A stretch of 62,580 bases of DNA, filler included. It is 9 parts of 9 records of this genome, joined end to end, with 100 filler letters (N's around TTAATTAATTAA, not from the genome) between each part and the next. Parts side by side here need not be neighbours in the genome. Positions count along the whole stretch, not along the records: positions 35,747 to 43,814 come from SRR31156797_34720; 8 more parts are not named here. One strand, written 5' to 3'. A program made the translations under genes and the position numbers. The notes beneath the pieces were generated by a model. That model did no database searches. It saw nothing but the letters and a program-made list of their open reading frames with translations, and was not told the DNA's origin. Positions 7,377 to 56,760 of the stretch are shown here, piece by piece. The number at the start of each line of letters is the position of its first letter. Position 1 is the first letter of the stretch.

Positions 7377-7476
7377 NNNNNNNNNNNNNNNNNNNNNNNN
7401 NNNNNNNNNNNNNNNNNNNNTTAATTAATTAANNNNNNNNNNNNNNNNNNNNNNNNNNNNNNNNNNNNNNNNNNNN
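7377..7476. other. Artificial contig spacer
   Basis: 44 N + TTAATTAATTAA + 44 N; identical spacers at 12567-12666, 18280-18379, 27580-27679, 35647-35746, 43815-43914, 49107-49206, 56661-56760. Confidence 0.98.
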
Positions 7477-12565: not shown

Positions 12566-12666
12566 ANNNNNNNNNNNNNNNNNNNNNNNNNNNNNNNNNN
12601 NNNNNNNNNNTTAATTAATTAANNNNNNNNNNNNNNNNNNNNNNNNNNNNNNNNNNNNNNNNNNNN

Positions 12667-18279: not shown

Positions 18280-18542
18280 NNNNNNNNNNNNNNNNNNNNN
18301 NNNNNNNNNNNNNNNNNNNNNNNTTAATTAATTAANNNNNNNNNNNNNNNNNNNNNNNNNNNNNNNNNNNNNNNNNNNNAAATAACGTTTGATATTCTTC
18401 ATTTTCGAATGTTTTTCCAAATGTAATTCAATTTGAATAGTTTTTATAATCGATACTTTCTTTTTTACTAAATTGCTAAATGTTTAATTGCGCTAATAAC
18501 TTATACAAAAAAAACCTGGAAATAAAAAGGGATTACCAAAAA

Positions 18543-27570: not shown

Positions 27571-28013
27571 TTTCAAATGNNNNNNNNNNNNNNNNNNNNN
27601 NNNNNNNNNNNNNNNNNNNNNNNTTAATTAATTAANNNNNNNNNNNNNNNNNNNNNNNNNNNNNNNNNNNNNNNNNNNNCCGTATTAACTACAGGGTCTG
27701 GATGGACAGTAGGTACATCAAGTTATGATAAAAATGAAATGCAAGACCTTGCATTCGGCAGTCTTCGGGTCATACTCACAGAATCACGAACAGCCCTCAG
27801 TAAAAAGGTTAAGGATAAAGCAAACACCAATTTTTCATTGTATATCAGGTAATCTAAAACTGGTGGCCTTTACCTTTTCTTCCCGTCTTCCCCAATTAGA
27901 CCAGTACTAGATGGAAATGGAATATGAACTATCTACTTGTAGATAATTGTTTGTCATTGCTAGGTTACCCTCCTACTCTATCTTCTCAAATCGCCCAAAA
28001 AAACGGAAAAACG

Positions 28014-35622: not shown

Positions 35623-35748
35623 GAAGAACTGAACTGCGGAGCGGATNNNNNNNNNNNNNNNNNNNNNNNNNNNNNNNNNNNNNNNNNNNNTTAATTAATT
35701 AANNNNNNNNNNNNNNNNNNNNNNNNNNNNNNNNNNNNNNNNNNNNTT

Positions 35749-36084
35749 GTTCTTGTCAATGGATATTCCTTTTCAGCAGCAGAGTATTTCGCTGCCGTTT
35801 TGCAGGAATACGATTACGCCTCGGTCATCGGACAAAACACAACCGGAAAGAGCCGCAGCCAGATTACCATCACACTGCCGGACGGCGGCGCACTGCACAT
35901 TTCCAGCGGTGAGTACCTCACGCCGAATCGCGTAAGTCTGACCGAACAGGGCGGAATCCGGCCGGATATCAACATTGAGATGAGCGATGAGGATACAGCC
36001 AGCCTCTATGCCGGAGTGCTTGATCGCGCCGATGACGATCAGCTTCAAAAAGCGATAGAGCTTATGAAAAACGCTGCGAACTAA
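35749..36084 (+). CDS. S41 C-terminal processing peptidase, 5'-truncated
   Basis: VLVNGYSFSAAE..GQNTTGK..GIRPD..DDQLQKAIE. Confidence 0.85.
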   Translation, partial: VLVNGYSFSAAEYFAAVLQEYDYASVIGQNTTGKSRSQITITLPDGGALHISSGEYLTPNRVSLTEQGGIRPDINIEMSDEDTASLYAGVLDRADDDQLQKAIELMKNAAN

Positions 36085-36090
36085 ACGGAT

Positions 36091-36119
36091 GTCATATTGA
36101 CACTACCGGTTCATATACT
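36091..36119 (+). promoter_or_regulatory. Possible sporulation sigmaE-type promoter
   Basis: GTCATATT-N13-CATATACT. Confidence 0.5.
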
Positions 36120-36172
36120 AAACCGAAACGCAGACGTAAGCCACGTTGACGGCAGACCGGGATTAAGGTGCT

Positions 36173-37009
36173 ATGATTTGTCTGATGGACGCTGTGAACA
36201 CACCCGACGGGCGCCGGACGTCCAGGTTCGTACGCAGACTAAAAGGTTATAACGGTATTACCTGCCGGCAAATTGCCGTTTTAGGTATGCGCGTCGTGTA
36301 TATAACAATTGAAAAGCTGCCGGAAAAAAATCAGCGGGCTGTCACAAAACAGCTCGAGGATGTTGCTGCGCAGCTTCGCGCAAACCGAGTGGGGGCCGTT
36401 CTTTTTTCCGAAAACTTCCCGTATCGGAAATGGGTGTTAAGGGAAGGCTTTAAGGAAGCGAACGCAGGAAGCTTGATGGAACTATTAGCCGGTACGGTGG
36501 CGCAAAGTGCCGCTGAAAGCAGGCAGAGCGCCGCTGTGTTTACACAGCGCCTGACGTCCGCCGCCCTTCGGACGCTGACAGAGCTTTGCGGCTGTTTCAA
36601 AACGGTCATGCTTGTCTCCGATTCAGGAGAAGAAGCCTGCCGGATGCTTGGCAGACAGCTTGGAATTTCCGTGATTTTTAACCCAACCGCGGGTCAACTA
36701 AAAAAAACCGACGCGGCTGTTTTCTTCGACGCGCCGCGCCGTCCCGTTATTTTGAAGGAAGAAGCCATTGCCATACCGGCCGGCTGCGGAGCGCTCGACG
36801 GCGTGTCATATATGGCGGCTGTATCCGGTGTTGACATCGGGCTTGCCGACGGTATGGATATTGACGTTCCCGAAGGCTTTGCTTATTGGCCGTTGGTATC
36901 GGCGGCATTGGAATGCCGGGCGCTTGCGCCGGAGTCGGTGCAGCTGCGTGGTTTGCATTTTGAGACTTCCTGTCGACATTATACGACGCCCGGCGACTTG
37001 ACAAACTGA
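36173..37009 (+). CDS. Hypothetical protein
   Basis: 278-aa ORF with AAGGTG RBS; no motif recognised. Confidence 0.7.
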   Translation: MICLMDAVNTPDGRRTSRFVRRLKGYNGITCRQIAVLGMRVVYITIEKLPEKNQRAVTKQLEDVAAQLRANRVGAVLFSENFPYRKWVLREGFKEANAGSLMELLAGTVAQSAAESRQSAAVFTQRLTSAALRTLTELCGCFKTVMLVSDSGEEACRMLGRQLGISVIFNPTAGQLKKTDAAVFFDAPRRPVILKEEAIAIPAGCGALDGVSYMAAVSGVDIGLADGMDIDVPEGFAYWPLVSAALECRALAPESVQLRGLHFETSCRHYTTPGDLTN

Positions 37010-37026
37010 CAAGTTTTTACTATAAT
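36998..37026 (+). promoter_or_regulatory. Consensus sigmaA promoter for greA
   Basis: TTGACA-N17-TATAAT, exact consensus. Confidence 0.9.
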
Positions 37027-37105
37027 TAGTGCTTAAATACGGCAGTAATATACAACGATGTGTTAGTTACCGCCGTATACACATTTGGATGAACTATGTT
37101 TTCAT

Positions 37106-37134
37106 GTGTCGGATTTCCGGCACGGTATTTTTTT
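37106..37134 (+). terminator. Terminator-like hairpin in the greA leader
   Basis: GTGTCGGA-TT-TCCGGCAC followed by GGTATTTTTTT. Confidence 0.55.
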
Positions 37135-37268
37135 AGTATTTTTTAGTACTGATTCTCTTTAATAAACCATGGGGCTTATTGTTTTACCGCAGTTATAATT
37201 TGCAAATTTAAAGGTATTCGGAGATTGGCCCGACATCGGATCGGTCCTAAATAGAAAGGATGGTGGCT

Positions 37269-37745
37269 ATGGGAAAGGAAGCAAGATTTAAAATGAGTGC
37301 GGAACGCCTCGCGGAGCTCAAAGAAGAGCTTCAATTTCTTGTTACAGTCAGGGAGAAAGAGGTGGCCGAGCAAATTAAGGAGGCCCGCTCTTTTGGCGAT
37401 CTTTCCGAAAACAGCGAATACGATGAAGCCAAAACAGAACAGGGCAAGCTGTATTCAAAAATAGCGGAAATAAAAAAACTGATTGAAAATGCCGAAATCA
37501 TCACGCAAAGCGACGAGACGGATAAAGTCAGCATTGGCAGCGTTGTCACCGTCAAAGACTGCGAGTTTAATTCGGAAGAAACGTATCAGGTTGTCGGCTC
37601 GCAGGAAGCCGACCCAAGCGTTATGAAAATCTCGGACGACTCCCCGCTGGGGAAGGGGCTTTTAGGACACAAGGTTGGCGATAACGTCGAGATTGACGCG
37701 CCGGCCGGACGTCTCAGTTTTGAGATACTTAAGATTGGGAAATAA
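37269..37745 (+). CDS. greA: Transcription elongation factor GreA
   Basis: ARSFGDLSENSEYDEAK, ISDDSPLGKGLLG. Confidence 0.97.
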   Translation: MGKEARFKMSAERLAELKEELQFLVTVREKEVAEQIKEARSFGDLSENSEYDEAKTEQGKLYSKIAEIKKLIENAEIITQSDETDKVSIGSVVTVKDCEFNSEETYQVVGSQEADPSVMKISDDSPLGKGLLGHKVGDNVEIDAPAGRLSFEILKIGK

Positions 37746-37750
37746 ATAAA

Positions 37751-37781
37751 AGGGGGATACAGCGCGTGCGCTGTTCCCCCT
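37751..37781. terminator. GC-rich hairpin between greA and lysS
   Basis: AGGGGGA-T-ACAGCGC-GT-GCGCTGT-TCCCCCT; T-rich tail only on the minus strand. Confidence 0.55.
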
Positions 37782-37883
37782 GAAGAGCTTGTTCTGTTTT
37801 ATCTAAGCGGTGATTATTATACAAATGAGCAAAGCCTCAATAAGAGGACTAAGATGTTTATGCGCGGGACGCGGGAGGACTTA

Positions 37884-39389
37884 ATGGCAGACGAAAACGT
37901 TATGGCACAGCAGGACCAGGAGCAGGAGCTTTCGGAGCTTGTACAGATTCGGTTTGATAAGCTGAAGAAGCTACAGGAAGAGGGACAAGACCCGTTCCAA
38001 ATTACCAAATTTGAGCGGACGGCCTATTCAGCCGACATTAAAGACAGCTTTGACACACTGGAAAACGAGACGGTCTCTCTGGCCGGGCGCGTTATGGCGC
38101 GCCGGGGTATGGGCAAGGCGATCTTTGCCGATCTGCTGGATGCCAAAGGCCGGATACAGCTTTATATCCGGCGTGACGATGTCGGCGAGGACGTATTTGC
38201 CGTTTTTAAAAAAGGTGATATCGGCGACATTATCGGTGTGACCGGTTTCGTTTTTAAAACAAAAATGGGTGAGATCTCCGTCCACTGTAAACAGCTCCAG
38301 CTGCTGGCAAAATCGCTGCGGCCGCTGCCTGAAAAATTCCACGGGCTCACCAGCACGGAGCTCAAGTACCGCCAGCGTTACGTCGACCTCATTATGAACC
38401 CTGAAACGCGCAGGATTTTCGAGATTCGAAGCCGCTTTATCCGCCACGTGCGCGCTTTTCTCGATGCGCGCGGATATATGGAAGTTGAAACGCCGGTTCT
38501 CAATACGATTTCCGGCGGCGCGACAGCGCGTCCGTTTATTACACATCACAACACGCTGGACCTTGACATGTACCTGCGCATTGCCACCGAGCTGCATTTA
38601 AAGCGGCTGATTGTGGGCGGTATCGAGCGCGTGTACGAGATCGGCCGTATCTTTCGCAACGAGGGTATGGATACCAAGCATAACCCGGAGTTTACAACGG
38701 TCGAGCTGTATGAGGCGTATGCCGACTACAACGATATGATGGACCTGTTTGAAGCGCTTTTATCCAGCGCCGCCATGGACCTTTTGGGCACCTATCAGAC
38801 CTCGTGGCAGGGTGAGGAAATCGACCTGACACCGGGCTGGCCCCGGCTGACGATGGCTGAGGCCGTCAAGCAGTTTTCCGGCGTTGATTTCACGTCGTTT
38901 AATACGACGGAGGATGCCGTAAAGGCCGCCGCTTCGCTCGGCGTTAAGATGCCCGATGGCAAGGAGCCGTCCTGGGGCGAGCTGCTGTACGAATGCTTCG
39001 ATCAACGCGTGGAGGACAAGCTGATTCAGCCCACGTTTATTACCGACCATCCCGTCGAAGTGTCGCCGCTGGCCAAGCGCCGGGCAGACGACCCGAGACT
39101 TACCGAACGCTTTGAGCTGTTTATCTGCCGGAATGAAATGGGCAACGCTTTCAGCGAGCTCAACGACCCCGTTGATCAGAAGCAGCGCTTCCAGCGCCAG
39201 GTGGAGCTGCGGCGTGCCGGCGACGATGAGGCGTGCATGATGGACGAGGACTACATCAATGCCCTGGAATATGGCATGCCGCCCACAGGCGGGCTTGGAA
39301 TCGGCATCGACCGATGCGTCATGATGCTGACAAACAACGCGTCGATCCGGGACGTGCTGCTGTTCCCGACTATGAAACCGATAGATTAA
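37884..39389 (+). CDS. lysS: Lysyl-tRNA synthetase (class II)
   Basis: [49 protein letters not shown]. Confidence 0.98.
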
Positions 39390-39468
39390 AACTGAAGCTG
39401 CGGCCGTAAGGGTTTCCTTATTGCCACAGCTTCTTTAATAAGGTATGATTGGTGTGAAGGCTCTTAAA

Positions 39469-40227
39469 ATGGAAGAGATTACAAGCCGAAAAAACACGCT
39501 TGTCCGTCATCTGAAAAAGCTCGGAACGGACGGCGATTACCGCCGGCAGTCCGGTGAATTTCTGTGCGACGGGGACAAGCTGCTGCGTGAGGCCGTGCTC
39601 AGCGGGGCGGTGATCACGGCTGTCTTGACGAGCCGTGCAAATCAGGACTACCTGCCGGACAGTGCGCCGGTTTATCACGCGCCGCGGGATATTATTGAGG
39701 CCGCCTCGCCGCTTAAAACGCCGCAGGATGTTGTTTTCTCCTGCGCGCTGCCCGCGACGGATAAAAATACGCCCACATCGGGATTGCAGCTTATTCTGGA
39801 AGGGATACAGGACCCCGGCAACATCGGTACCATTCTGAGGACGGCCGGCGCGTTTGACGTCGCGCGCGTCATTTTAACGGGTAATTGTGCCGACCCGTAC
39901 GGCCCGAAGGCCGTCCGGGCCTCCATGGGCGCAATCTTTCGCCTCGTGCCCATCACGAGGGATTTGGAAGGGATCGCCCGTCTTAAAGAAGCTGGAATAA
40001 AGCTTTATGCCGCGGCTCTCGGGGAGAACTGTGCGGACGTCCGGGAAGCAGATTTCCAAAACGCCGCTGTTGCCATCGGCAGCGAGGGCAGGGGTTTGTC
40101 GATGGAACTTCTGGACCTGTGCGACGACAAAATAAAGATACCAATGGCCGACACCGCCGAGTCGCTCAATGCCGCCACCGCTGCCGCTATTATAATGTGG
40201 GAAGCGGCAAAAGCATACCGCTTGTAA
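39469..40227 (+). CDS. TrmH/SpoU family RNA 2'-O-methyltransferase
   Basis: ITSRKN, IQDPGNIGTILRTA, GSEGRG, ESLNAA. Confidence 0.93.
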   Translation: MEEITSRKNTLVRHLKKLGTDGDYRRQSGEFLCDGDKLLREAVLSGAVITAVLTSRANQDYLPDSAPVYHAPRDIIEAASPLKTPQDVVFSCALPATDKNTPTSGLQLILEGIQDPGNIGTILRTAGAFDVARVILTGNCADPYGPKAVRASMGAIFRLVPITRDLEGIARLKEAGIKLYAAALGENCADVREADFQNAAVAIGSEGRGLSMELLDLCDDKIKIPMADTAESLNAATAAAIIMWEAAKAYRL

Positions 40228-40273
40228 TCAAACCCCTTTGCTGTGACCTTTCGATCTTGAGTTGAGTTAGTTG

Positions 40274-40320
40274 AAGGCTCCTTTGGCAAAGGAGCTGTCT
40301 GCGTAGCAGACTGAGGATTG
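40274..40320 (+). repeat. REP-like structured repeat, left copy
   Basis: AAGGCTCCTTTGGCAAAGGAGCTGTC-TGCGTAGCA-GACTGAGGATTG. Confidence 0.9.
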
Positions 40321-40324
40321 ACAG

Positions 40325-40720
40325 ATGGAAAGTAATATCTTACCAAGAAATAAAAGGTTAATAGAACGAGCAAGAAATATGCGTAATAACGCGACTAAAC
40401 AAGAAAATCATCTTTGGTATGATTTTCTTAAGAATCAGAAACATCAATTTTACCGACAACGTATCGTTGGCGCATATATTGTTGATTTTTATTGTCCTAC
40501 TCTAAAGCTCGTCATTGAGGTTGACGGGATGCACCACTATGAAAATGAGGCGCTGGAGTATGATAAACAGCGCACGGAATTTTTAGAAAGTTTGGGTTTA
40601 GTGGTCTTGCGTCTTAATAACTTTGATATAGACCATAACTTTAAGTACGTATGTCAAATGATAACGCAGACAATCCTCAGTCGCCTGGCGGCGACAGCTC
40701 CTTTGCCAAAGGAGCCTTAG
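40325..40720 (+). CDS. DUF559 (Vsr-like/YcjD) endonuclease-domain protein
   Basis: ARNMRNNAT..E..LW, FYRQ..YIVDFYC..LVIEVDG.HH, D..RT..L..LG..VLR. Confidence 0.92.
   Translation: MESNILPRNKRLIERARNMRNNATKQENHLWYDFLKNQKHQFYRQRIVGAYIVDFYCPTLKLVIEVDGMHHYENEALEYDKQRTEFLESLGLVVLRLNNFDIDHNFKYVCQMITQTILSRLAATAPLPKEP
40671..40718 (-). repeat. REP-like structured repeat, right (inverted) copy
   Basis: Reverse complement AAGGCTCCTTTGGCAAAGGAGCTGTC-GCCGCCAGGC-GACTGAGGATTG. Confidence 0.9.
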
Positions 40721-40798
40721 TCCAAACAAATTTTATGTAACCTCTGCACAGCATCCTCCTTCTTGGCGTATCATTTAAAAGAAAGAGAGAGAATGGAT

Positions 40799-42025
40799 AT
40801 GGCAGCGCTGAAATATTGGGTGTGGCTGGCATCTCTTCCCGGCCTGCGGGCCGCCGCGGCTTGCCGGCTTCTGGACTGGTTTGGATCACCAGAACAGATT
40901 TTTTTCGCTGACGATGAGGTTTATAAGGAAATTCCGGGGCTTTTAAAGCAGGAGCTTACGGCTTTGTCTGAAAAAAATCTGTATGAGGCCAAACGGATTC
41001 TGGATGACTGCGAGACGTACGGCTTTCAGATCATGACACTGCACGACGGGGCTTACCCCTCCCGGCTGCGAAATATTCCCGATCCGCCAACCGTGCTGTA
41101 TGTCAAGGGCCGGCTGCCGGTTATGGACGAGGAGGCCGCAGTGGCTGTCGTCGGGACGCGCCGGTGTACGCCGTACGGCCTGAAGGCTGCCGAGAGGATT
41201 GGATACGAGCTCGCGCGCCACGGCTGCGTTGTCGTTTCGGGGCTGGCGCGGGGGATTGATACGGCTGCCGCCAAGGGTGCGCTGCGCGCGGGCGGCCGCG
41301 TTGTCGGGGTTATAGGCTCAGGGCTTGACATTATTTATCCGCCGGAAAACAAGCTGCTTTTTGACGATGTCACAACACTCGGCGCGATTATCAGCGAATA
41401 CGCGCCCGGCTCGCCGGCACTGTCTGCCCATTTTCCCCAGCGCAACAGGATTATGAGCGGTGTCAGCGTTGGGGTAACGGTTGTTGAAGCGCCGCTGAAA
41501 AGCGGGGCGCTGATTACGGCCTCCCGCGCGCTCGATCAGGGGCGGGACGTTTTCGCACTGCCGGGCAACGTCGACACCCCGGCCTGCAAGGGCTCCAATA
41601 TGCTGTTGAGAGAAGGCGCTGTTCTTGTCACGACGGGGCGCGAAATCGCCGAGGAATACGCCGCCTTATTTCCGGATAAAATTGTATCCATGCGGCAAAA
41701 AATATCGCTTGACCCGGCGATGGAAAAACGCCTGATCGACGATTATGATGCGGCTAAACGGCAGAAAACGGCAAAAAAAGAGATTGACAATCAAAAAACC
41801 GTGGAATATATTGACCTAAGTAAACTCCGGCAGGAGCTTGACGACGACGCGTATAATATACTCATGTCGATCGGACCCCGGACGGTGCATGTCGATGAGA
41901 TCATTACTCAAAGCGGTTTGGGGGCGTCCGTTGTGCTGCCGGCCCTGACGCTGTTAGAGCTCGACGGCTACGTTGAGCAGACGGCAGGCAAACATTTCAG
42001 GCTCTTATACGAGCAGCCGGGCTGA
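40799..42025 (+). CDS. dprA: DNA processing protein DprA
   Basis: YPSRLRNIPDPP, VAVVGTR, VSGLARGID, FPQRNRIMSG, SGALITA; start may be 40793. Confidence 0.96.
   Translation: MAALKYWVWLASLPGLRAAAACRLLDWFGSPEQIFFADDEVYKEIPGLLKQELTALSEKNLYEAKRILDDCETYGFQIMTLHDGAYPSRLRNIPDPPTVLYVKGRLPVMDEEAAVAVVGTRRCTPYGLKAAERIGYELARHGCVVVSGLARGIDTAAAKGALRAGGRVVGVIGSGLDIIYPPENKLLFDDVTTLGAIISEYAPGSPALSAHFPQRNRIMSGVSVGVTVVEAPLKSGALITASRALDQGRDVFALPGNVDTPACKGSNMLLREGAVLVTTGREIAEEYAALFPDKIVSMRQKISLDPAMEKRLIDDYDAAKRQKTAKKEIDNQKTVEYIDLSKLRQELDDDAYNILMSIGPRTVHVDEIITQSGLGASVVLPALTLLELDGYVEQTAGKHFRLLYEQPG
41784..41812 (+). promoter_or_regulatory. Putative sigmaA promoter inside dprA, upstream of topA
   Basis: TTGACA-N17-TATATT. 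Confidence 0.65.
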
Positions 42026-42120
42026 AAACACCCGCCGGCCATACCGCCGGCTTTCATATAGAGCGGTTCACCCGATAATACCGCTGAAACTTACATATTT
42101 CGAAATGAGGACTTTACCGG

Positions 42121-43814
42121 ATGGCAAAAGCAAATACCAACCTCGTGATCGTTGAATCACCGGCAAAAGCAAAAACAATCGGCAAATACCTTGGGACTGG
42201 TTACAAAGTAACGGCGTCCATGGGGCATCTGCGCGATCTGCCGAAAAGCCAGCTGGGTGTCGATCTGGAAAACGGATTTACGCCGGACTACAAGCCGGTT
42301 AAGGGACGCGAGGAAACAATCAACGAACTGAAAAAAGCTGCGGAGTCGAGTGACAAAGTTTATCTCGCAACTGACCCGGACCGCGAAGGCGAGGCTATCT
42401 CCTGGCATTTAAAGGAGCTTTTAAACCTCGAAGATGACCGGGCGTTTCGTGTGACGTTCAATGAAATCACCAAAAAGGTTGTGCAGGAAAGCATCGAGCA
42501 CCCGCGCGCAATAGACCAAGACCTTGTCAACGCCCAGCAGGCCCGACGCATTTTAGACCGAATCGTTGGCTATAAGCTCAGCCCGCTTTTATGGCGCAAG
42601 ATCAAACGCGGTCTGTCGGCCGGGCGCGTACAGTCTGTGGCGACACGCATGGTTACCGACAAGGAGGAGAGCATCCGCGCGTTTGTCCCGGAGGAGTATT
42701 GGCTTCTGGAGGCGGATATTTCGCGCACGGTGAAGGACGGACGCTTTAAGGCCGGTTTTCATGGTAAAGCAGGCAAGAAAATGGAGCTGCACAGTGAAGA
42801 GGACGTCGACACAGTTGTCACGGCTGTCCAAAACGCGCCGTTCACCGTCGAGAGCGTCAAGCGTACCGATAAAAAACGGTCGCCGTCTCCGCCATTTATC
42901 ACCTCAACGCTGCAGCAGGAAGCGTCGCGAAAGCTGGGCATGACGCCGCGCCGCGCGATGTCCATTGCACAGCAGCTGTACGAAGGCGTTGACATCAAGG
43001 GTGAGGGGACCGTCGGTCTTATCACCTACATGAGAACCGATTCGCTGCGTATCTCGGAGGAGGCCCTTGCCGACGCGCGGACACTCATTACCGGGCAATA
43101 CGGCGATAAGTTTTATCCCGGCAGCCCGACGCGTTATAAAACAAAAAACTCGGCGCAGGATGCTCATGAGGCGATACGGCCCTCGAGTGTTTTCACGACG
43201 CCGGATAAGATCAAGGACAGCATCACGAAAGACCAGTACCGGCTTTACAAAATGATTTGGAGCCGCTTTATTGCCAGCCAGATGACGAACGCGATTTACG
43301 ACAGCGTCACAGTCGATATCGGTTCGGCCGGGTACACGTTCAGGACGAGCCACACCGTCATCAAATTTGCCGGCTTTACGACCGTTTATGTGGAAGGCCG
43401 CGACGACGATAAAGAGGAAGATTATTCGCCGCTGCCGGATCTTGAGGTCGGCGAGCTTTTAAAGCTGGAGGACATCAAGAAGGAACAGAAATTTACACAG
43501 CCGCCCTCCCGGTATACGGAAGCCACGCTCATCAAGGCCATGGAGGAAACAGGCGTCGGGCGTCCAAGCACCTATGCGCCAACCATTTCCACCATACTGG
43601 ACCGGGAATACGTCGTCAAGGAAGGGCGCTATCTTCGCCCGACGATGCTCGGCGAGGTCGTCACGACGCTTATGAAGGAGCGCTTTGGCGATATTGTCGA
43701 CCTTAAATTTACGGCGCGTATGGAGGAAAGCCTCGACAGCGTCGAAAAAGGCGTTAAGAACTGGAAGAGCCTGCTGTCTGATTTTTATGGTGAATTCGAC
43801 ACATCGCTGCAAAA
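42121..43814 (+). CDS. topA: DNA topoisomerase I, 3'-truncated
   Basis: VIVESPAKAKTI, LATDPDREGE, SAGRVQS, ITYMRTDS, QDAHEAIRP, GRPSTY. Confidence 0.98.
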
Positions 43815-43914
43815 NNNNNNNNNNNNNNNNNNNNNNNNNNNNNNNNNNNNNNNNNNNNTTAATTAATTAANNNNNNNNNNNNNNNNNNNNNNNNNNNNNN
43901 NNNNNNNNNNNNNN

Positions 43915-49104: not shown

Positions 49105-49208
49105 GTNNNNNNNNNNNNNNNNNNNNNNNNNNNNNNNNNNNNNNNNNNNNTTAATTAATTAANNNNNNNNNNNNNNNNNNNNNNNNNNNNNNNNNNNNNN
49201 NNNNNNAT

Positions 49209-56660: not shown

Positions 56661-56760
56661 NNNNNNNNNNNNNNNNNNNNNNNNNNNNNNNNNNNNNNNN
56701 NNNNTTAATTAATTAANNNNNNNNNNNNNNNNNNNNNNNNNNNNNNNNNNNNNNNNNNNN

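What the first reader, a model, noticed from the sequence alone, without database searches (positions are those of the whole stretch)
40274..40720. DUF559 nuclease gene bracketed by inverted, structure-conserving REP-like repeats: candidate minimal mobile element
Seen: an AT-rich 131-aa DUF559 gene sits between the GC-richer trmH-like and dprA genes, enclosed by 47- and 48-bp inverted copies. Each copy is a palindrome GCTCCTTTG-G-CAAAGGAGC, a second hairpin, and a TGAGGATTG tail. The copies are identical over 26+12 nt and differ only in the second hairpin (GTC-TGC-gta-GCA-GAC versus GTC-GCC-gcca-GGC-GAC), where pairing is preserved, which points to selection on structure rather than sequence. 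The left copy ends 4 nt before the ATG and supplies GAGG; the right copy encodes the last 16 codons. There is no transposase and no clear target duplication. Known: this layout parallels RAYT/REP systems, but RAYTs are HUH enzymes whereas DUF559 is a Vsr-like nuclease of unknown function. Inference: DUF559 recognises or nicks these hairpins and spreads the cassette and solo repeats.
Basis: partly seen in the sequence, partly recalled or inferred. Interest (0 to 1): 0.85.

Follow-up and report, generated by a model that had tools for sequence, protein, structure and literature searches.

The report
Hairpin-armed DUF559 nuclease cassette
A 445-base unit, made of a small DNA-cutting enzyme gene between two folded inverted repeats, sits inserted between two housekeeping genes and belongs to a widespread, apparently undescribed family of tiny selfish DNA elements.

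Summary
Arms 40274-40320 and 40671-40718 are identical over 26+12 nt and differ only in a second hairpin that keeps its pairing. They enclose a 131-aa DUF559 (Vsr-like) gene of low GC.

Among 84 related genes, 62 carry at least one such arm. Arms are absent from shuffles and near absent from 347 kb of control loci. Related genomes hold 17-76 arms beside 1-3 DUF559 genes, many as gene-less doublets. One genome has three full cassette copies in different flanks. Cassettes 88-94% identical lie in unrelated contexts, with no target duplication.

All 16 nearest relatives that reach upstream of dprA have trmH directly beside dprA, so this cassette is an insertion.

Not shown: that the nuclease acts on the arms, or any empty site within the same species. 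The window is nine joined pieces. Only 8 kb belongs with the finding, so solo copies in the source genome cannot be counted.

This scan has noted the same pairing before on other DNA. I found no published description.

The parts
40274..40320 (+). Left arm, 47 nt. It consists of hairpin 1 (40277-40295: pyrimidine stem GCTCCTTT, loop GGC, purine stem AAAGGAGC), hairpin 2 (40297-40311) and a tail (40312-40320, TGAGGATTG) that mirrors the purine stem. It contains GAGG (40313-40316), 8 nt before the ATG.
40325..40720 (+). DUF559 (Vsr-like PD-(D/E)xK) gene of 131 aa. The Pfam domain covers residues 11-116. Residues 116-131 are encoded by the right arm.
   Evidence: E 5.4e-28. E65, D67, G68 and H71 are invariant and D54 nearly invariant in 26 sequences. 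PDB 3hrl, E 3.9e-13.
40671..40718 (-). Right arm, 48 nt, an inverted copy of the left arm. Hairpin 1 (40697-40715) and the tail (40671-40679 on the other strand) are identical to the left arm. Hairpin 2 (40680-40695) has a different sequence but keeps its pairing.
39445..40227 (+). Upstream neighbour: a SpoU/TrmH-type RNA methylase gene. It is not part of the element. Its stop lies 46 nt before the left arm.
40763..42025 (+). Downstream neighbour: dprA. It is not part of the element. In relatives it directly follows the methylase gene.
35747..43814 (.). The assembled piece that carries the finding: an unknown 278-aa ORF, greA, lysS, the methylase gene, the cassette, dprA and the 5' part of topA. 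Spacers of N bound it on both sides.

Best explanation
The 445-bp unit 40274-40718 is one member of a large family of very small selfish cassettes in Clostridia. Each cassette holds a ~120-130-aa DUF559 nuclease gene between two inverted arms. Each arm consists of a pyrimidine/purine hairpin, a second hairpin of free sequence, and a tail that mirrors the purine strand of the first hairpin. The same arms also occur without the gene, singly and as inverted doublets, in tens of copies per genome.

SHOWN: the unit is discrete. It is an insertion relative to conserved gene order. Relatives are multi-copy, sit in unrelated contexts, and are more conserved than core genes. The protein is under strong purifying selection. 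The arm class in a genome matches the class around its resident DUF559 gene.

INFERRED: each arm folds in DNA, either single-stranded or extruded from supercoiled duplex, into a hairpin-plus-third-strand (purine-motif triplex) structure. The DUF559 nuclease binds that structure and nicks at or beside it. Host recombination or repair then copies arm-bounded DNA, using the ~47-nt arms as homology or as template-switch points. In this way the gene can enter gene-less doublets (homing-like spread) and arms or doublets can spread (REP/RAYT-like spread).

My odds: the unit is an inserted member of an evolutionarily mobile family, 0.9. The arms form a triplex-type fold, 0.5. DUF559 is the enzyme that acts on them, 0.55. 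The route is homing-like rather than RAYT-like: undecided.
For: Inverted repeats around the gene. 46 of 84 related genes score 30 or more in a flank-to-flank alignment, against 0 of 75 and 7 of 84 for controls shifted by 700 nt.

Three-part arm scanner. It found 151 arms in 447,528 bp of DUF559 loci, 116 of them within 150 nt of a DUF559 gene. It found 2 in 347,098 bp of unrelated dprA loci and 0 in 3 dinucleotide shuffles of each set. Of the 84 genes, 34 have both arms, 28 have one and 22 have none.

Mirror tail. Of 295 hairpin1+hairpin2 candidates chosen without regard to the tail, 50.5% have a tail that mirrors their own purine stem at 85% or more. The figure is 9.2% when the stem is read in direct orientation and 9.6% against other elements' stems. 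There are 52 distinct stems among the positives. The last stem base and the first tail base are linked: G-G in 40, C-T in 40 and C-G in 1 of 81 distinct arms.

Hairpin 2. 139 of 249 gaps hold a hairpin of 4 bp or more, against a mean of 18.6 (maximum 31) in 200 shuffles. There are 108 distinct sequences. Hairpin 2 is identical in both arms of a cassette in 0 of 34 cases.

Abundance in whole genomes. Arm and DUF559 gene counts are 41/2, 76/3, 17/2, 31/1 and 2/4 in five genomes, and 56/1 in the genome holding the closest relative in the species-genome collection.

Class match. Window-type arms number 56 in G050 and 0 in 9 other genomes. The other class numbers 0 in G050.

Mobility. G006 has three full copies (100, 97 and 93% identity) with unrelated left flanks. 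39 of the 40 most similar cassette pairs (87.6-96.7% identity) share no flank similarity. Homology between cassettes starts exactly at the outer base of hairpin 1. Cassettes are 82-90% identical in genomes whose flanking core gene is 69-79% identical. There is no target duplication in 32 of 34 cassettes.

Selection. Median dN/dS is 0.064 over 44 pairs.

Co-occurrence in 41 genomes. Both present in 18, arms only in 2, gene only in 5, neither in 16; Fisher p = 2.5e-5.

This locus. All 16 relatives that reach upstream of dprA have lysS-trmH-dprA-topA order without the cassette. GC is 0.40 against 0.57.
Against: There is no biochemical evidence at all.

No same-species empty site was seen. Contigs of three other runs (two other studies) carry the same filled left junction with 2-3 differences, and no contig skips the cassette.

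No further arm lies on the 8-kb piece or anywhere else in the window.

22 of 84 relatives have no arm by the strict scanner. 5 of 41 genomes have DUF559 without the arm pattern, and 2 of 41 have arms without DUF559.

In some lineages the cassette rides inside a larger unit. One is a 1,252-bp insertion with its own inverted ends in a terminator loop. Another is a 4.6-kb variable island. The arms therefore need not be the ends that move.

The doublets of G001 carry other second hairpins than the resident cassette, and they sit in a longer conserved unit.

dS is 0.44 between two copies in one genome, so those copies are not recent.

A PD-(D/E)xK nuclease has no known strand-transfer activity, so host functions must be assumed (established knowledge).

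The arm scanner was designed after I had seen the arms. The arms are related by descent, so the counts are not independent events. The relatives are incomplete metagenome-assembled genomes.
Confidence: 0.55

Rival explanations
1. Passenger model. The arms are an independent repeat family, spread by another enzyme or by host processes, or the whole cassette is carried by other elements (MITE- or MIC-like units with their own inverted ends). The DUF559 gene is cargo that became fixed between two arms and does not act on them.
For: The L054 cassette lies inside a 1,252-bp insertion with separate inverted ends. The G008 cassette lies at the edge of a 4.6-kb island that is absent from at least three relatives (G006, G030, G028). 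Arms occur without DUF559 in 2 of 41 genomes, and DUF559 occurs without the arm pattern in 5 of 41. The G001 doublets have their own second hairpins and extended conserved flanks. Holder et al. found no mobility gene near TM repeats.
Against: The gene is tightly built into the arms: the ribosome-binding GAGG lies in the left tail and the ORF ends inside the right arm. The orientation is constant, with tails facing the gene, in 34 two-arm cassettes. dN/dS is 0.064. The arm class matches between the resident gene and the genome-wide arms. Homology between cassettes begins at the arm's outer base. A Y1 transposase was not found in 3 of 5 arm-rich genomes.
Confidence: 0.2
2. Host-function model. 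DUF559 is a Vsr-like structure-specific repair nuclease that the host keeps in order to process or tolerate these folded repeats, or the lesions they cause. Its place between two arms reflects regulation or origin, not drive.
For: Purifying selection is strong. The family groups with Vsr, a repair nuclease. TM repeats are linked to genomic instability in E. coli (abstract). Many genomes have a single gene beside many arms.
Against: Gene presence is patchy among close relatives (23 of 41). Near-identical cassettes lie in unrelated contexts. One genome holds three copies, one of them frameshifted. Composition is foreign and the cassette is absent from the syntenic site in 16 of 16 relatives.
Confidence: 0.12
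3. Invertible or regulatory model. The inverted arms serve programmed inversion of the gene, or they act as RNA hairpins (terminators or stabilisers) for neighbouring genes.
For: 'DUF559 domain-containing protein' is enriched (odds ratio 14.3) among predicted programmed-inversion targets in PMC9881135 (table passage). The arms are stable hairpins.
Against: The 8-kb piece carries no recombinase. No strand-changing joint appears in contigs of 4 runs, although contigs drop rare forms. Neither hairpin 1 is followed by a T-run, and the terminator scan gave no more than chance: 1 found, on the minus strand within the right arm, against 1.3 expected. The mirror tail fits a purine-motif triplex, which according to Holder et al. 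cannot form in RNA. No Rfam family matched above threshold.
Confidence: 0.05

Closest known systems
REP / REPIN repeats with their RAYT (REP-associated tyrosine transposase) genes
   Same: An enzyme gene is flanked by inverted copies of a short structured repeat. The same repeat is dispersed in tens of extragenic copies, often as inverted doublets. The repeat class matches the class around the resident gene.
   Different: The enzyme is a Vsr-like PD-(D/E)xK nuclease, not an HUH/Y1 transposase; Pfam Y1_Tnp was not found in 3 of 5 arm-rich genomes. The repeat has two hairpins plus a mirror tail. The gene-bearing unit is itself multi-copy and moves between genomes. The ORF runs into the repeat.
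BoxC / PIT / TM intrastrand-triplex repeats (Holder et al. 2015, PMC4666352; sections 15 and 16 and passages read)
   Same: Both have three consecutive blocks: a pyrimidine stem, a purine stem and a second purine-rich block that mirrors it. These fit C-G-G, A-A-T and T-A-T triads. Both are abundant, intergenic and of unknown function and spread. A true TM_ECO-type motif lies about 170 nt beyond E. coli ycjD, a DUF559 gene.
   Different: Here the second loop is an 18-19-nt hairpin rather than the 1-6 nt used by that study's search. The stem sequence differs from the TM_ECO consensus. The paper reports no associated mobility gene and mentions neither DUF559, ycjD nor any endonuclease (0 occurrences each). 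At ycjD the motif has the opposite orientation to the right arm here, and the upstream hairpin is of another kind.
Free-standing homing endonuclease genes, including the Vsr-like I-Bth0305I (PDB 3r3p)
   Same: Both are small nuclease genes with patchy distribution and horizontal spread that sit as discrete insertions. PMC3424549 places DUF559, Vsr and 3r3p in one group.
   Different: No target gene, intron or intein is involved. The unit brings its own structured inverted arms. Gene-less doublets, not an uninterrupted host gene, are the candidate empty form. No filled/empty pair limited to the cassette was found.
IS200/IS605-type elements and MITEs
   Same: The unit is small and has structured ends. 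Like IS200/IS605 (recalled), it makes no target duplication (32 of 34). Miniature gene-less derivatives exist.
   Different: There is no transposase of any known family. The ends are true inverted repeats, unlike IS200/IS605. There is no target duplication, unlike most MITEs.
Vsr, the very-short-patch repair endonuclease
   Same: The two share a fold group. The acidic and histidine positions of the core are conserved: E65, D67 and H71 are invariant in 26 sequences.
   Different: No cytosine methyltransferase gene lies beside it on this piece. The gene is of foreign composition, inserted, and flanked by arms.

Membership tests
DUF559 (PF04480), Vsr-like PD-(D/E)xK nucleases | Match to the family profile above its curated cut-off | tested here: met
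   97.5 bits against a cut-off of 20.6, E 5.4e-28, residues 11-116
DUF559 (PF04480), Vsr-like PD-(D/E)xK nucleases | Conserved acidic and histidine core residues | tested here: met
   E65, D67, G68 and H71 are invariant and D54 nearly invariant in 26 aligned sequences. Their catalytic roles are recalled from Vsr, not tested.
DUF559 (PF04480), Vsr-like PD-(D/E)xK nucleases | Sequence relative with a solved structure of this fold | tested here: met
   3hrl 'Endonuclease-like protein', E 3.9e-13; weak matches to the AbaSI and PvuRts1I nuclease domains
DUF559 (PF04480), Vsr-like PD-(D/E)xK nucleases | Nuclease activity | not testable with these tools
   -
REP/REPIN-RAYT system | The associated gene is an HUH (Y1) transposase | tested here: not met
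   The gene is DUF559. PF01797 was not found in G001, G002 and G019, which hold 41, 76 and 36 arms.
REP/REPIN-RAYT system | The gene is flanked by inverted copies of a palindromic repeat | tested here: met
REP/REPIN-RAYT system | The same repeat is dispersed in many extragenic copies, including inverted doublets | tested here: inconclusive
   Met in relatives. Not testable for the source genome, because none is held and only 8 kb is linked. Extra depth (30 against 4.6) and 4 diverging contigs at the left arm in the probable source run hint at more copies.
BoxC/PIT/TM intrastrand triplex motif (criteria of Holder et al. 2015) | Three consecutive blocks able to form purine-motif triads, stem 6-15 nt, at most one mismatch | tested here: met
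   In the window 7 of 8 positions fit by the strict rule on both arms.
BoxC/PIT/TM intrastrand triplex motif (criteria of Holder et al. 2015) | Loops of 1-6 nt between the blocks | tested here: not met
   The first loop is 1-3 nt, depending on how the stem is counted. The second 'loop' is 18-19 nt and is itself a hairpin.
BoxC/PIT/TM intrastrand triplex motif (criteria of Holder et al. 2015) | Triplex forms in vitro or in vivo | not testable with these tools
   -
Homing endonuclease gene | Filled and empty alleles of the same site among close relatives | tested here: inconclusive
   The site is empty in 16 of 16 distant relatives (DprA 49-56% identical). Three other runs with near-identical DNA are all filled. 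In the G006 group the empty sites differ by 1.25-4.6 kb, not by the cassette alone.
IS / MITE | A transposase gene (autonomous element) and a target-site duplication | tested here: not met
   The only ORF is DUF559. There is no duplication in 32 of 34 two-arm cassettes, including the window's.
Programmed invertible segment | A site-specific recombinase nearby and both orientations present | tested here: not met
   The 8-kb piece carries no recombinase. No strand-changing joint was seen in contigs of 4 runs, which is weak evidence because contigs drop rare forms.

The most novel reading that the evidence does not exclude
DUF559 is a structure-specific nuclease whose substrate is an intrastrand purine-motif DNA triplex formed by each arm. 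With only this ~130-aa protein and host repair, the 445-bp unit copies itself and its gene-less doublets. That would be a transposase-free way for short structured repeats to spread, distinct from HUH/RAYT and DDE systems. It would also give the long-unexplained BoxC/PIT/TM triplex repeats, and the DUF559 family, their first function.
Probability: 0.3. Interest if true: 0.9.

Novelty: new variant of a known kind. Interest (0 to 1): 0.76.

Why it matters
DUF559 is a very large family with no assigned function: 6,018 relatives of similar length were found for this protein alone. Short structured repeats of the BoxC/TM type have been known since the 1990s without an enzyme or a means of spread (Holder et al.).

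A ~445-bp unit with one ~130-aa protein would be among the smallest gene-bearing selfish elements. Its arms show a three-way covariation between pyrimidine stem, purine stem and mirror tail, which points to a non-B DNA fold as the recognised feature. This makes several questions directly testable with oligonucleotides and one small protein:
- what DUF559 does;
- whether intrastrand triplexes are biological recognition elements;
- how these repeats multiply.

There is also a practical side. The arms break metagenome assemblies: several contigs here end exactly at an arm. They also create spurious protein N- and C-termini such as '...APLPKEP' and 'RLLWQRSC...'.

Tried and rejected
- Whole-genome search of the source: no genome is held.
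- Other copies in the window: none found. This says little, because the window is nine unrelated-looking pieces with GC from 0.27 to 0.60.
- Same-species empty site from public runs: 4 runs were laid as contigs. No joint skips the cassette, and parts without cover prove nothing.
- A clean filled/empty pair limited to the cassette among 41 relatives of G006: the differences found are 1.25 kb and 4.6 kb, and a third locus (L207) gave no syntenic match on its left side.
- Multiple alignment of 45 arms: hairpin 1 was out of register between classes, so I built no covariance model and used my own scanner instead.
- Rfam: only StyR-143 at E 0.017, far below its gathering score, which I take as chance.
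- Promoter and terminator scan: nothing above shuffles.
- Phage or plasmid carriage: rare, with 3 of 50,697 phage records and 35 of 72,556 plasmid records, all below 60% identity.
- E. coli ycjD as an exact counterpart: only partly so. The 3' end overlaps a degenerate motif, a duplicated 3' remnant and a true TM-type motif follow, and the upstream hairpin is of another kind.
- The PF04480 control search did not flag E. coli, although ycjD is annotated as DUF559. The first-look filter of that tool therefore misses some members.
- Structure prediction, complex prediction, the representative-protein search and the protein atlas were not used. Family membership was already clear, and no binding claim is made.
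- Chance as an explanation is rejected.
Full report
WHAT IS THERE

The window sequence and the repeat finder confirm two inverted arms, 40274-40320 and 40671-40718. They are identical over 26 nt (hairpin 1 and its surroundings) and over 12 nt (the tail), and they differ only in a second hairpin whose pairing is kept. Each arm folds as single-stranded DNA into two adjacent hairpins with a free 9-nt tail (z -4.0 to -5.6; 0 of 200 shuffles fold as well).

The arms enclose an ORF of 131 aa (40325-40720). It matches Pfam DUF559 at E 5.4e-28, and its nearest solved relative is 3hrl (E 3.9e-13). The left tail supplies GAGG 8 nt before the ATG. The right arm encodes the last 16 codons.

The unit has 40% GC (35% in its interior), against 57% in the neighbouring SpoU-type methylase and dprA genes. 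The 19-nt palindrome is not a chance match: 2 copies were found against 0.01 expected.

The tail TGAGGATT is the mirror image, not the complement, of the 3' strand of hairpin 1 (AAAGGAGC). A pyrimidine stem, a purine stem and a mirrored third block together form the pattern of a purine-motif intrastrand triplex. Holder et al. (PMC4666352) describe this pattern for BoxC/PIT/TM repeats. I read the outline, sections 15 and 16 and several passages of that paper. The lead came from earlier notes of this scan, and I tested it on my own data, as described below.

A CAVEAT ABOUT THE WINDOW

The window is nine pieces joined by N44-TTAATTAATTAA-N44 spacers, with GC from 0.27 to 0.60. The finding lies on the piece 35747-43814. 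That piece carries an unknown ORF, greA, lysS, the methylase gene, the cassette, dprA and the 5' part of topA. No whole genome is held. The absence of further arms in the window therefore says little about the source genome.

In the run that is probably the source, depth on the left arm is 30 against 4.6 beside it, and four contigs match up to 40320 and then diverge. This hints at further arm copies in that sample, though not necessarily in that organism.

IS IT AN INSERTION?

I fetched 80 metagenome loci encoding DprA relatives. The 17 closest (DprA 49-56% identical, LysS 71-78%) keep the order lysS-trmH-dprA-topA. All 16 that reach upstream of dprA have the methylase gene directly beside dprA. 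None of the 80 loci has a DUF559 gene. In the window the same interval holds an extra 46 nt, the 445-bp unit and 44 nt. Together with the foreign composition, this makes the unit an insertion.

At short evolutionary range I found no empty site. Contigs of three other runs from two other studies carry the filled left junction with 2-3 differences, and no contig skips the cassette.

THE FAMILY

The protein has 6,018 relatives of similar length in the large protein collection, the best at 67% identity. Several of them end in '...APLPKEP', which is the right arm translated. Several gene calls extended upstream begin 'RLLWQRSC...RLRIE', which is the left arm translated. The same arms therefore surround relatives elsewhere.

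I fetched the 79 best of 583 confirmed loci from species-representative genomes. Most are Oscillospiraceae and other Clostridia MAGs, with 42-62% protein identity. They hold 83 DUF559 genes.

A local alignment of each gene's upstream flank against the reverse complement of its downstream flank scores 30 or more for 46 of 84 genes (window included). Controls shifted by 700 nt give 0 of 75 and 7 of 84.

I then wrote a scanner for the three-part arm: a pyrimidine-rich stem, its complement, a hairpin of 4 bp or more, and a mirrored tail.
- It found only the two arms in the window.
- It found 151 arms in 447,528 bp of DUF559 loci. 116 lie within 150 nt of a DUF559 gene and 35 lie further away.
- It found 2 in 347,098 bp of the dprA loci.
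- It found none in three dinucleotide shuffles of either set.
- Of the 84 genes, 34 have both arms with tails facing the gene, 28 have one arm and 22 have none.
- 14 tail-to-tail doublets contain no gene.

The scanner was designed after I had seen the arms. The shuffles and the unrelated loci are the safeguard against that bias.

COVARIATION

I picked 295 candidates by hairpin 1 plus hairpin 2 alone. In 50.5% of them the following bases mirror the element's own purine stem at 85% or more. The figure is 9.2% when the stem is read in direct orientation and 9.6% against the stems of other elements. There are 52 distinct stems among the positives.

One position is especially telling. When the last base of the purine stem is G, the first tail base is G (40 distinct arms). 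When it is C, the tail base is T (40 distinct arms). There is one exception. A variable base three positions away is not linked. The window's arms have C and T.

G opposite G-C, and A or T opposite A-T, are the triads named in Holder's section 15.

For hairpin 2, 139 of 249 candidates picked by hairpin 1 plus mirror tail have a hairpin filling the gap. Shuffled gaps give a mean of 18.6 and a maximum of 31 in 200 shuffles. There are 108 distinct hairpin-2 sequences. In 0 of 34 two-arm cassettes is hairpin 2 the same in both arms, while the hairpin-1 core is the same in 19 of 34.

The window's pattern is therefore the family rule: the recognition-like parts (hairpin 1 and tail) are the same in both arms, and the second hairpin differs but stays paired. 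According to Holder's introduction, purine-motif triplexes cannot form in RNA. This favours a DNA-level structure. All these sequences are related by descent, so the counts are not independent events.

ABUNDANCE AND CLASS MATCH

In whole genomes of relatives, arms far outnumber genes. Five genomes hold 41, 76, 17, 31 and 2 arms of the CTCCCTT...AAGGGAG class beside 2, 3, 2, 1 and 4 DUF559 matches. The genome holding the closest relative in the species-genome collection (G050, 62% protein identity) has 56 arms of the window's own class (CTCCTTT..CAAAGGAG) and one DUF559 gene, which lies between two of them.

The classes are exclusive. Window-type arms number 0 in nine other genomes, and the other class numbers 0 in G050.

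Many arms form doublets. In G001, ten fetched doublets share both second hairpins and a ~25-nt spacer, and they sit in a longer conserved unit. In G002 the pairs are head-to-head around a conserved ~95-nt AT-rich core.

Among 41 relatives of G006, the arm pattern and DUF559 occur together in 18. Arms occur alone in 2, DUF559 alone in 5, and neither in 16 (Fisher p = 2.5e-5). These are incomplete MAGs, not phylogenetically independent, and only one arm class was searched.

Pfam Y1_Tnp (the RAYT and IS200 enzyme) was not found in 3 of 5 arm-rich genomes.

MOBILITY OF THE UNIT

- Different contexts. Of the 40 most similar cassette pairs (87.6-96.7% nucleotide identity), 39 share no similarity in 1.25 kb of either flank.
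- Sharp ends. Homology between such cassettes begins exactly at the outer base of hairpin 1 (A(A)AGCC...). In one pair (L054 and L063) that runs on past the right arm, it also ends exactly at the arm's outer base. Several other right ends coincide with contig ends and prove nothing.
- Several copies in one genome. G006 holds three full-length copies (100, 97 and 93% identity) with unrelated left flanks and a shared ~135-nt 3' module. One copy is frameshifted.
- More conserved than core genes. In relatives of G006 the cassette is 82-90% identical and lies on other contigs, while the neighbouring core gene is 69-79% identical.
- No target duplication in 32 of 34 two-arm cassettes. The ends read AAAG...CTTT. 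Unit lengths run from 436 to 683 bp, with a median near 450.
- Protein under selection. Median dN/dS among close cassettes is 0.064 over 44 pairs.
- Rarely on phages or plasmids: 3 of 50,697 phage records and 35 of 72,556 plasmid records. One viral contig ends in an arm with the window's hairpin 1 and tail and yet another second hairpin.

EVIDENCE THAT COMPLICATES THE PICTURE

The L054 cassette lies inside a 1,252-bp insertion that has its own inverted ends and sits in the loop of a terminator hairpin. The site is empty in the relative G008. The G008 cassette lies at the edge of a 4.6-kb island missing from at least three relatives (G006, G030, G028). A third locus gave no usable synteny. In these lineages the cassette may therefore be carried by larger units, and I found no filled/empty pair limited to the cassette.

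In addition, 22 of 84 genes lack arms by the strict scanner. dS of 0.44 between two copies in one genome shows that those copies are old.

HOW IT MOST LIKELY WORKS

The following is shown: a discrete, inserted unit that is mobile over evolutionary time; arms that are conserved in structure and covary; gene-less derivatives; matching arm classes; and a protein under selection.

The mechanism is inferred. Each arm folds in DNA into a hairpin-plus-third-strand structure. The DUF559 nuclease binds it and nicks nearby. Host recombination or repair then copies arm-bounded DNA. This could convert doublets into gene-bearing units (homing-like spread) or multiply arms and doublets (REP/RAYT-like spread).

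A PD-(D/E)xK nuclease has no known strand-transfer activity, so host functions must be assumed. I put 0.55 on DUF559 being the enzyme that acts on the arms. The rivals are the passenger model (0.2), a host repair function (0.12) and inversion or RNA-level regulation (0.05).

COMPARISON WITH WHAT IS KNOWN

In layout the unit works like REP/REPIN-RAYT, but it fails that family's defining feature, the HUH enzyme. Its arms resemble BoxC/PIT/TM triplex motifs but fail the short-loop criterion and the consensus. It resembles a free-standing homing endonuclease gene but has no host target gene. It has neither the transposase nor the target duplication of an IS or MITE.

E. coli ycjD, a DUF559 gene, is a partial parallel:
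- Its 3' end overlaps a degenerate motif, and a duplicated 3' remnant and a true TM-type motif follow.
- A 2026 paper (PMC12817139, passages read) reports that ycjD occupies the place of the eefRABCD operon between sapF and fabI in phylogroups A, B1 and C. It does not treat ycjD as a mobile element.

IS IT IN PRINT?

I ran four full-text searches: 'DUF559' (25 papers), 'DUF559' with 'inverted repeat' (3 papers), 'ycjD' (21 papers), and 'intrastrand triplex' with 'bacteria' and 'repeat' (20 papers) (listings seen). None has a title or abstract on such a cassette.

The nearest items are these:
- A table in PMC9881135 lists 'DUF559 domain-containing protein' as enriched (odds ratio 14.3) among predicted programmed-inversion targets, without discussion.
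- Holder et al. state that no mobility function was found near TM repeats.
- PMC3424549 groups Vsr, DUF559 and DUF2726 and notes 'No HGT observed'.

I did not open supplements, and subscription journals are not covered.

Earlier notes of this scan report the same pairing on many other genomes (253 notes hold the search words). I used them as leads only.

VERDICT

The window's copy is a clean, apparently intact member: the ORF is open, the core residues are conserved, and hairpin 1 and the tail are identical in both arms. It is a good substrate for the decisive experiments.

Noticed in passing
window 7377-7476, 12567-12666, 18280-18379, 27580-27679, 35647-35746, 43815-43914, 49107-49206, 56661-56760: Eight spacers of the form N44-TTAATTAATTAA-N44 divide the window into nine pieces whose GC ranges from 0.27 to 0.60. 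The window is a concatenation of contigs, possibly from more than one organism. topA is cut at 43814.
   Followed up: partly
L054:2261-3512 against G008:C13:48937-48943 (L194): A 1,252-bp composite insertion lies in the loop of a terminator hairpin that is intact in the relative. It has its own inverted ends (..CTCT[A/T]AAGGACAGTTTT) and carries a 166-aa ORF, apparently a membrane protein, plus a DUF559 cassette.
   Followed up: partly
L181-L183, L191 (G006 and G008 cassette copies), about 135 nt beyond the right arm: A conserved ~135-nt module with two small hairpins follows the right arm in several copies and also occurs elsewhere in those genomes. It may be the end of a separate miniature element.
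   Followed up: no
L160:5040-5840 (E. coli K-12, ycjD region): Beyond ycjD lies a duplicated remnant of the gene's own 3' end and then a TM_ECO-type motif. Upstream lies a long hairpin of a different kind. PMC12817139 reports ycjD in place of the eefRABCD operon in phylogroups A, B1 and C.
   Followed up: partly
L172-L180 (G002): In this genome the arms occur mostly as head-to-head pairs around a conserved ~95-nt AT-rich core. This is the opposite arrangement to the cassette and to the doublets of G001.
   Followed up: no
L161-L170 (G001): Ten doublets share both second hairpins, a ~25-nt spacer and at least 35-50 nt of conserved sequence outside the arms. The repeated unit there is therefore longer than the doublet (230 nt or more).
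   Followed up: no
L205:701-753 (viral contig end); L036 and L039 (contig ends): Several contigs end exactly at an arm, so these repeats break short-read assemblies. The viral contig's arm has the window's hairpin 1 and tail and a third kind of second hairpin.
   Followed up: partly
L182 (G006:C8 copy): A 1-nt deletion near the start truncates the DUF559 ORF after 19 codons in one of three copies. This is either a decayed copy or an assembly error.
   Followed up: no
34 two-arm cassettes of L001-L079 and the window: The second hairpin is never the same in the two arms of a cassette (0 of 34), although hairpin 1 often is (19 of 34). This could reflect avoidance of a long perfect palindrome or a left/right distinction. 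It remains unexplained.
   Followed up: partly
window 36173-37009: A 278-aa ORF upstream of greA has no Pfam match at E 0.001 or better.
   Followed up: no
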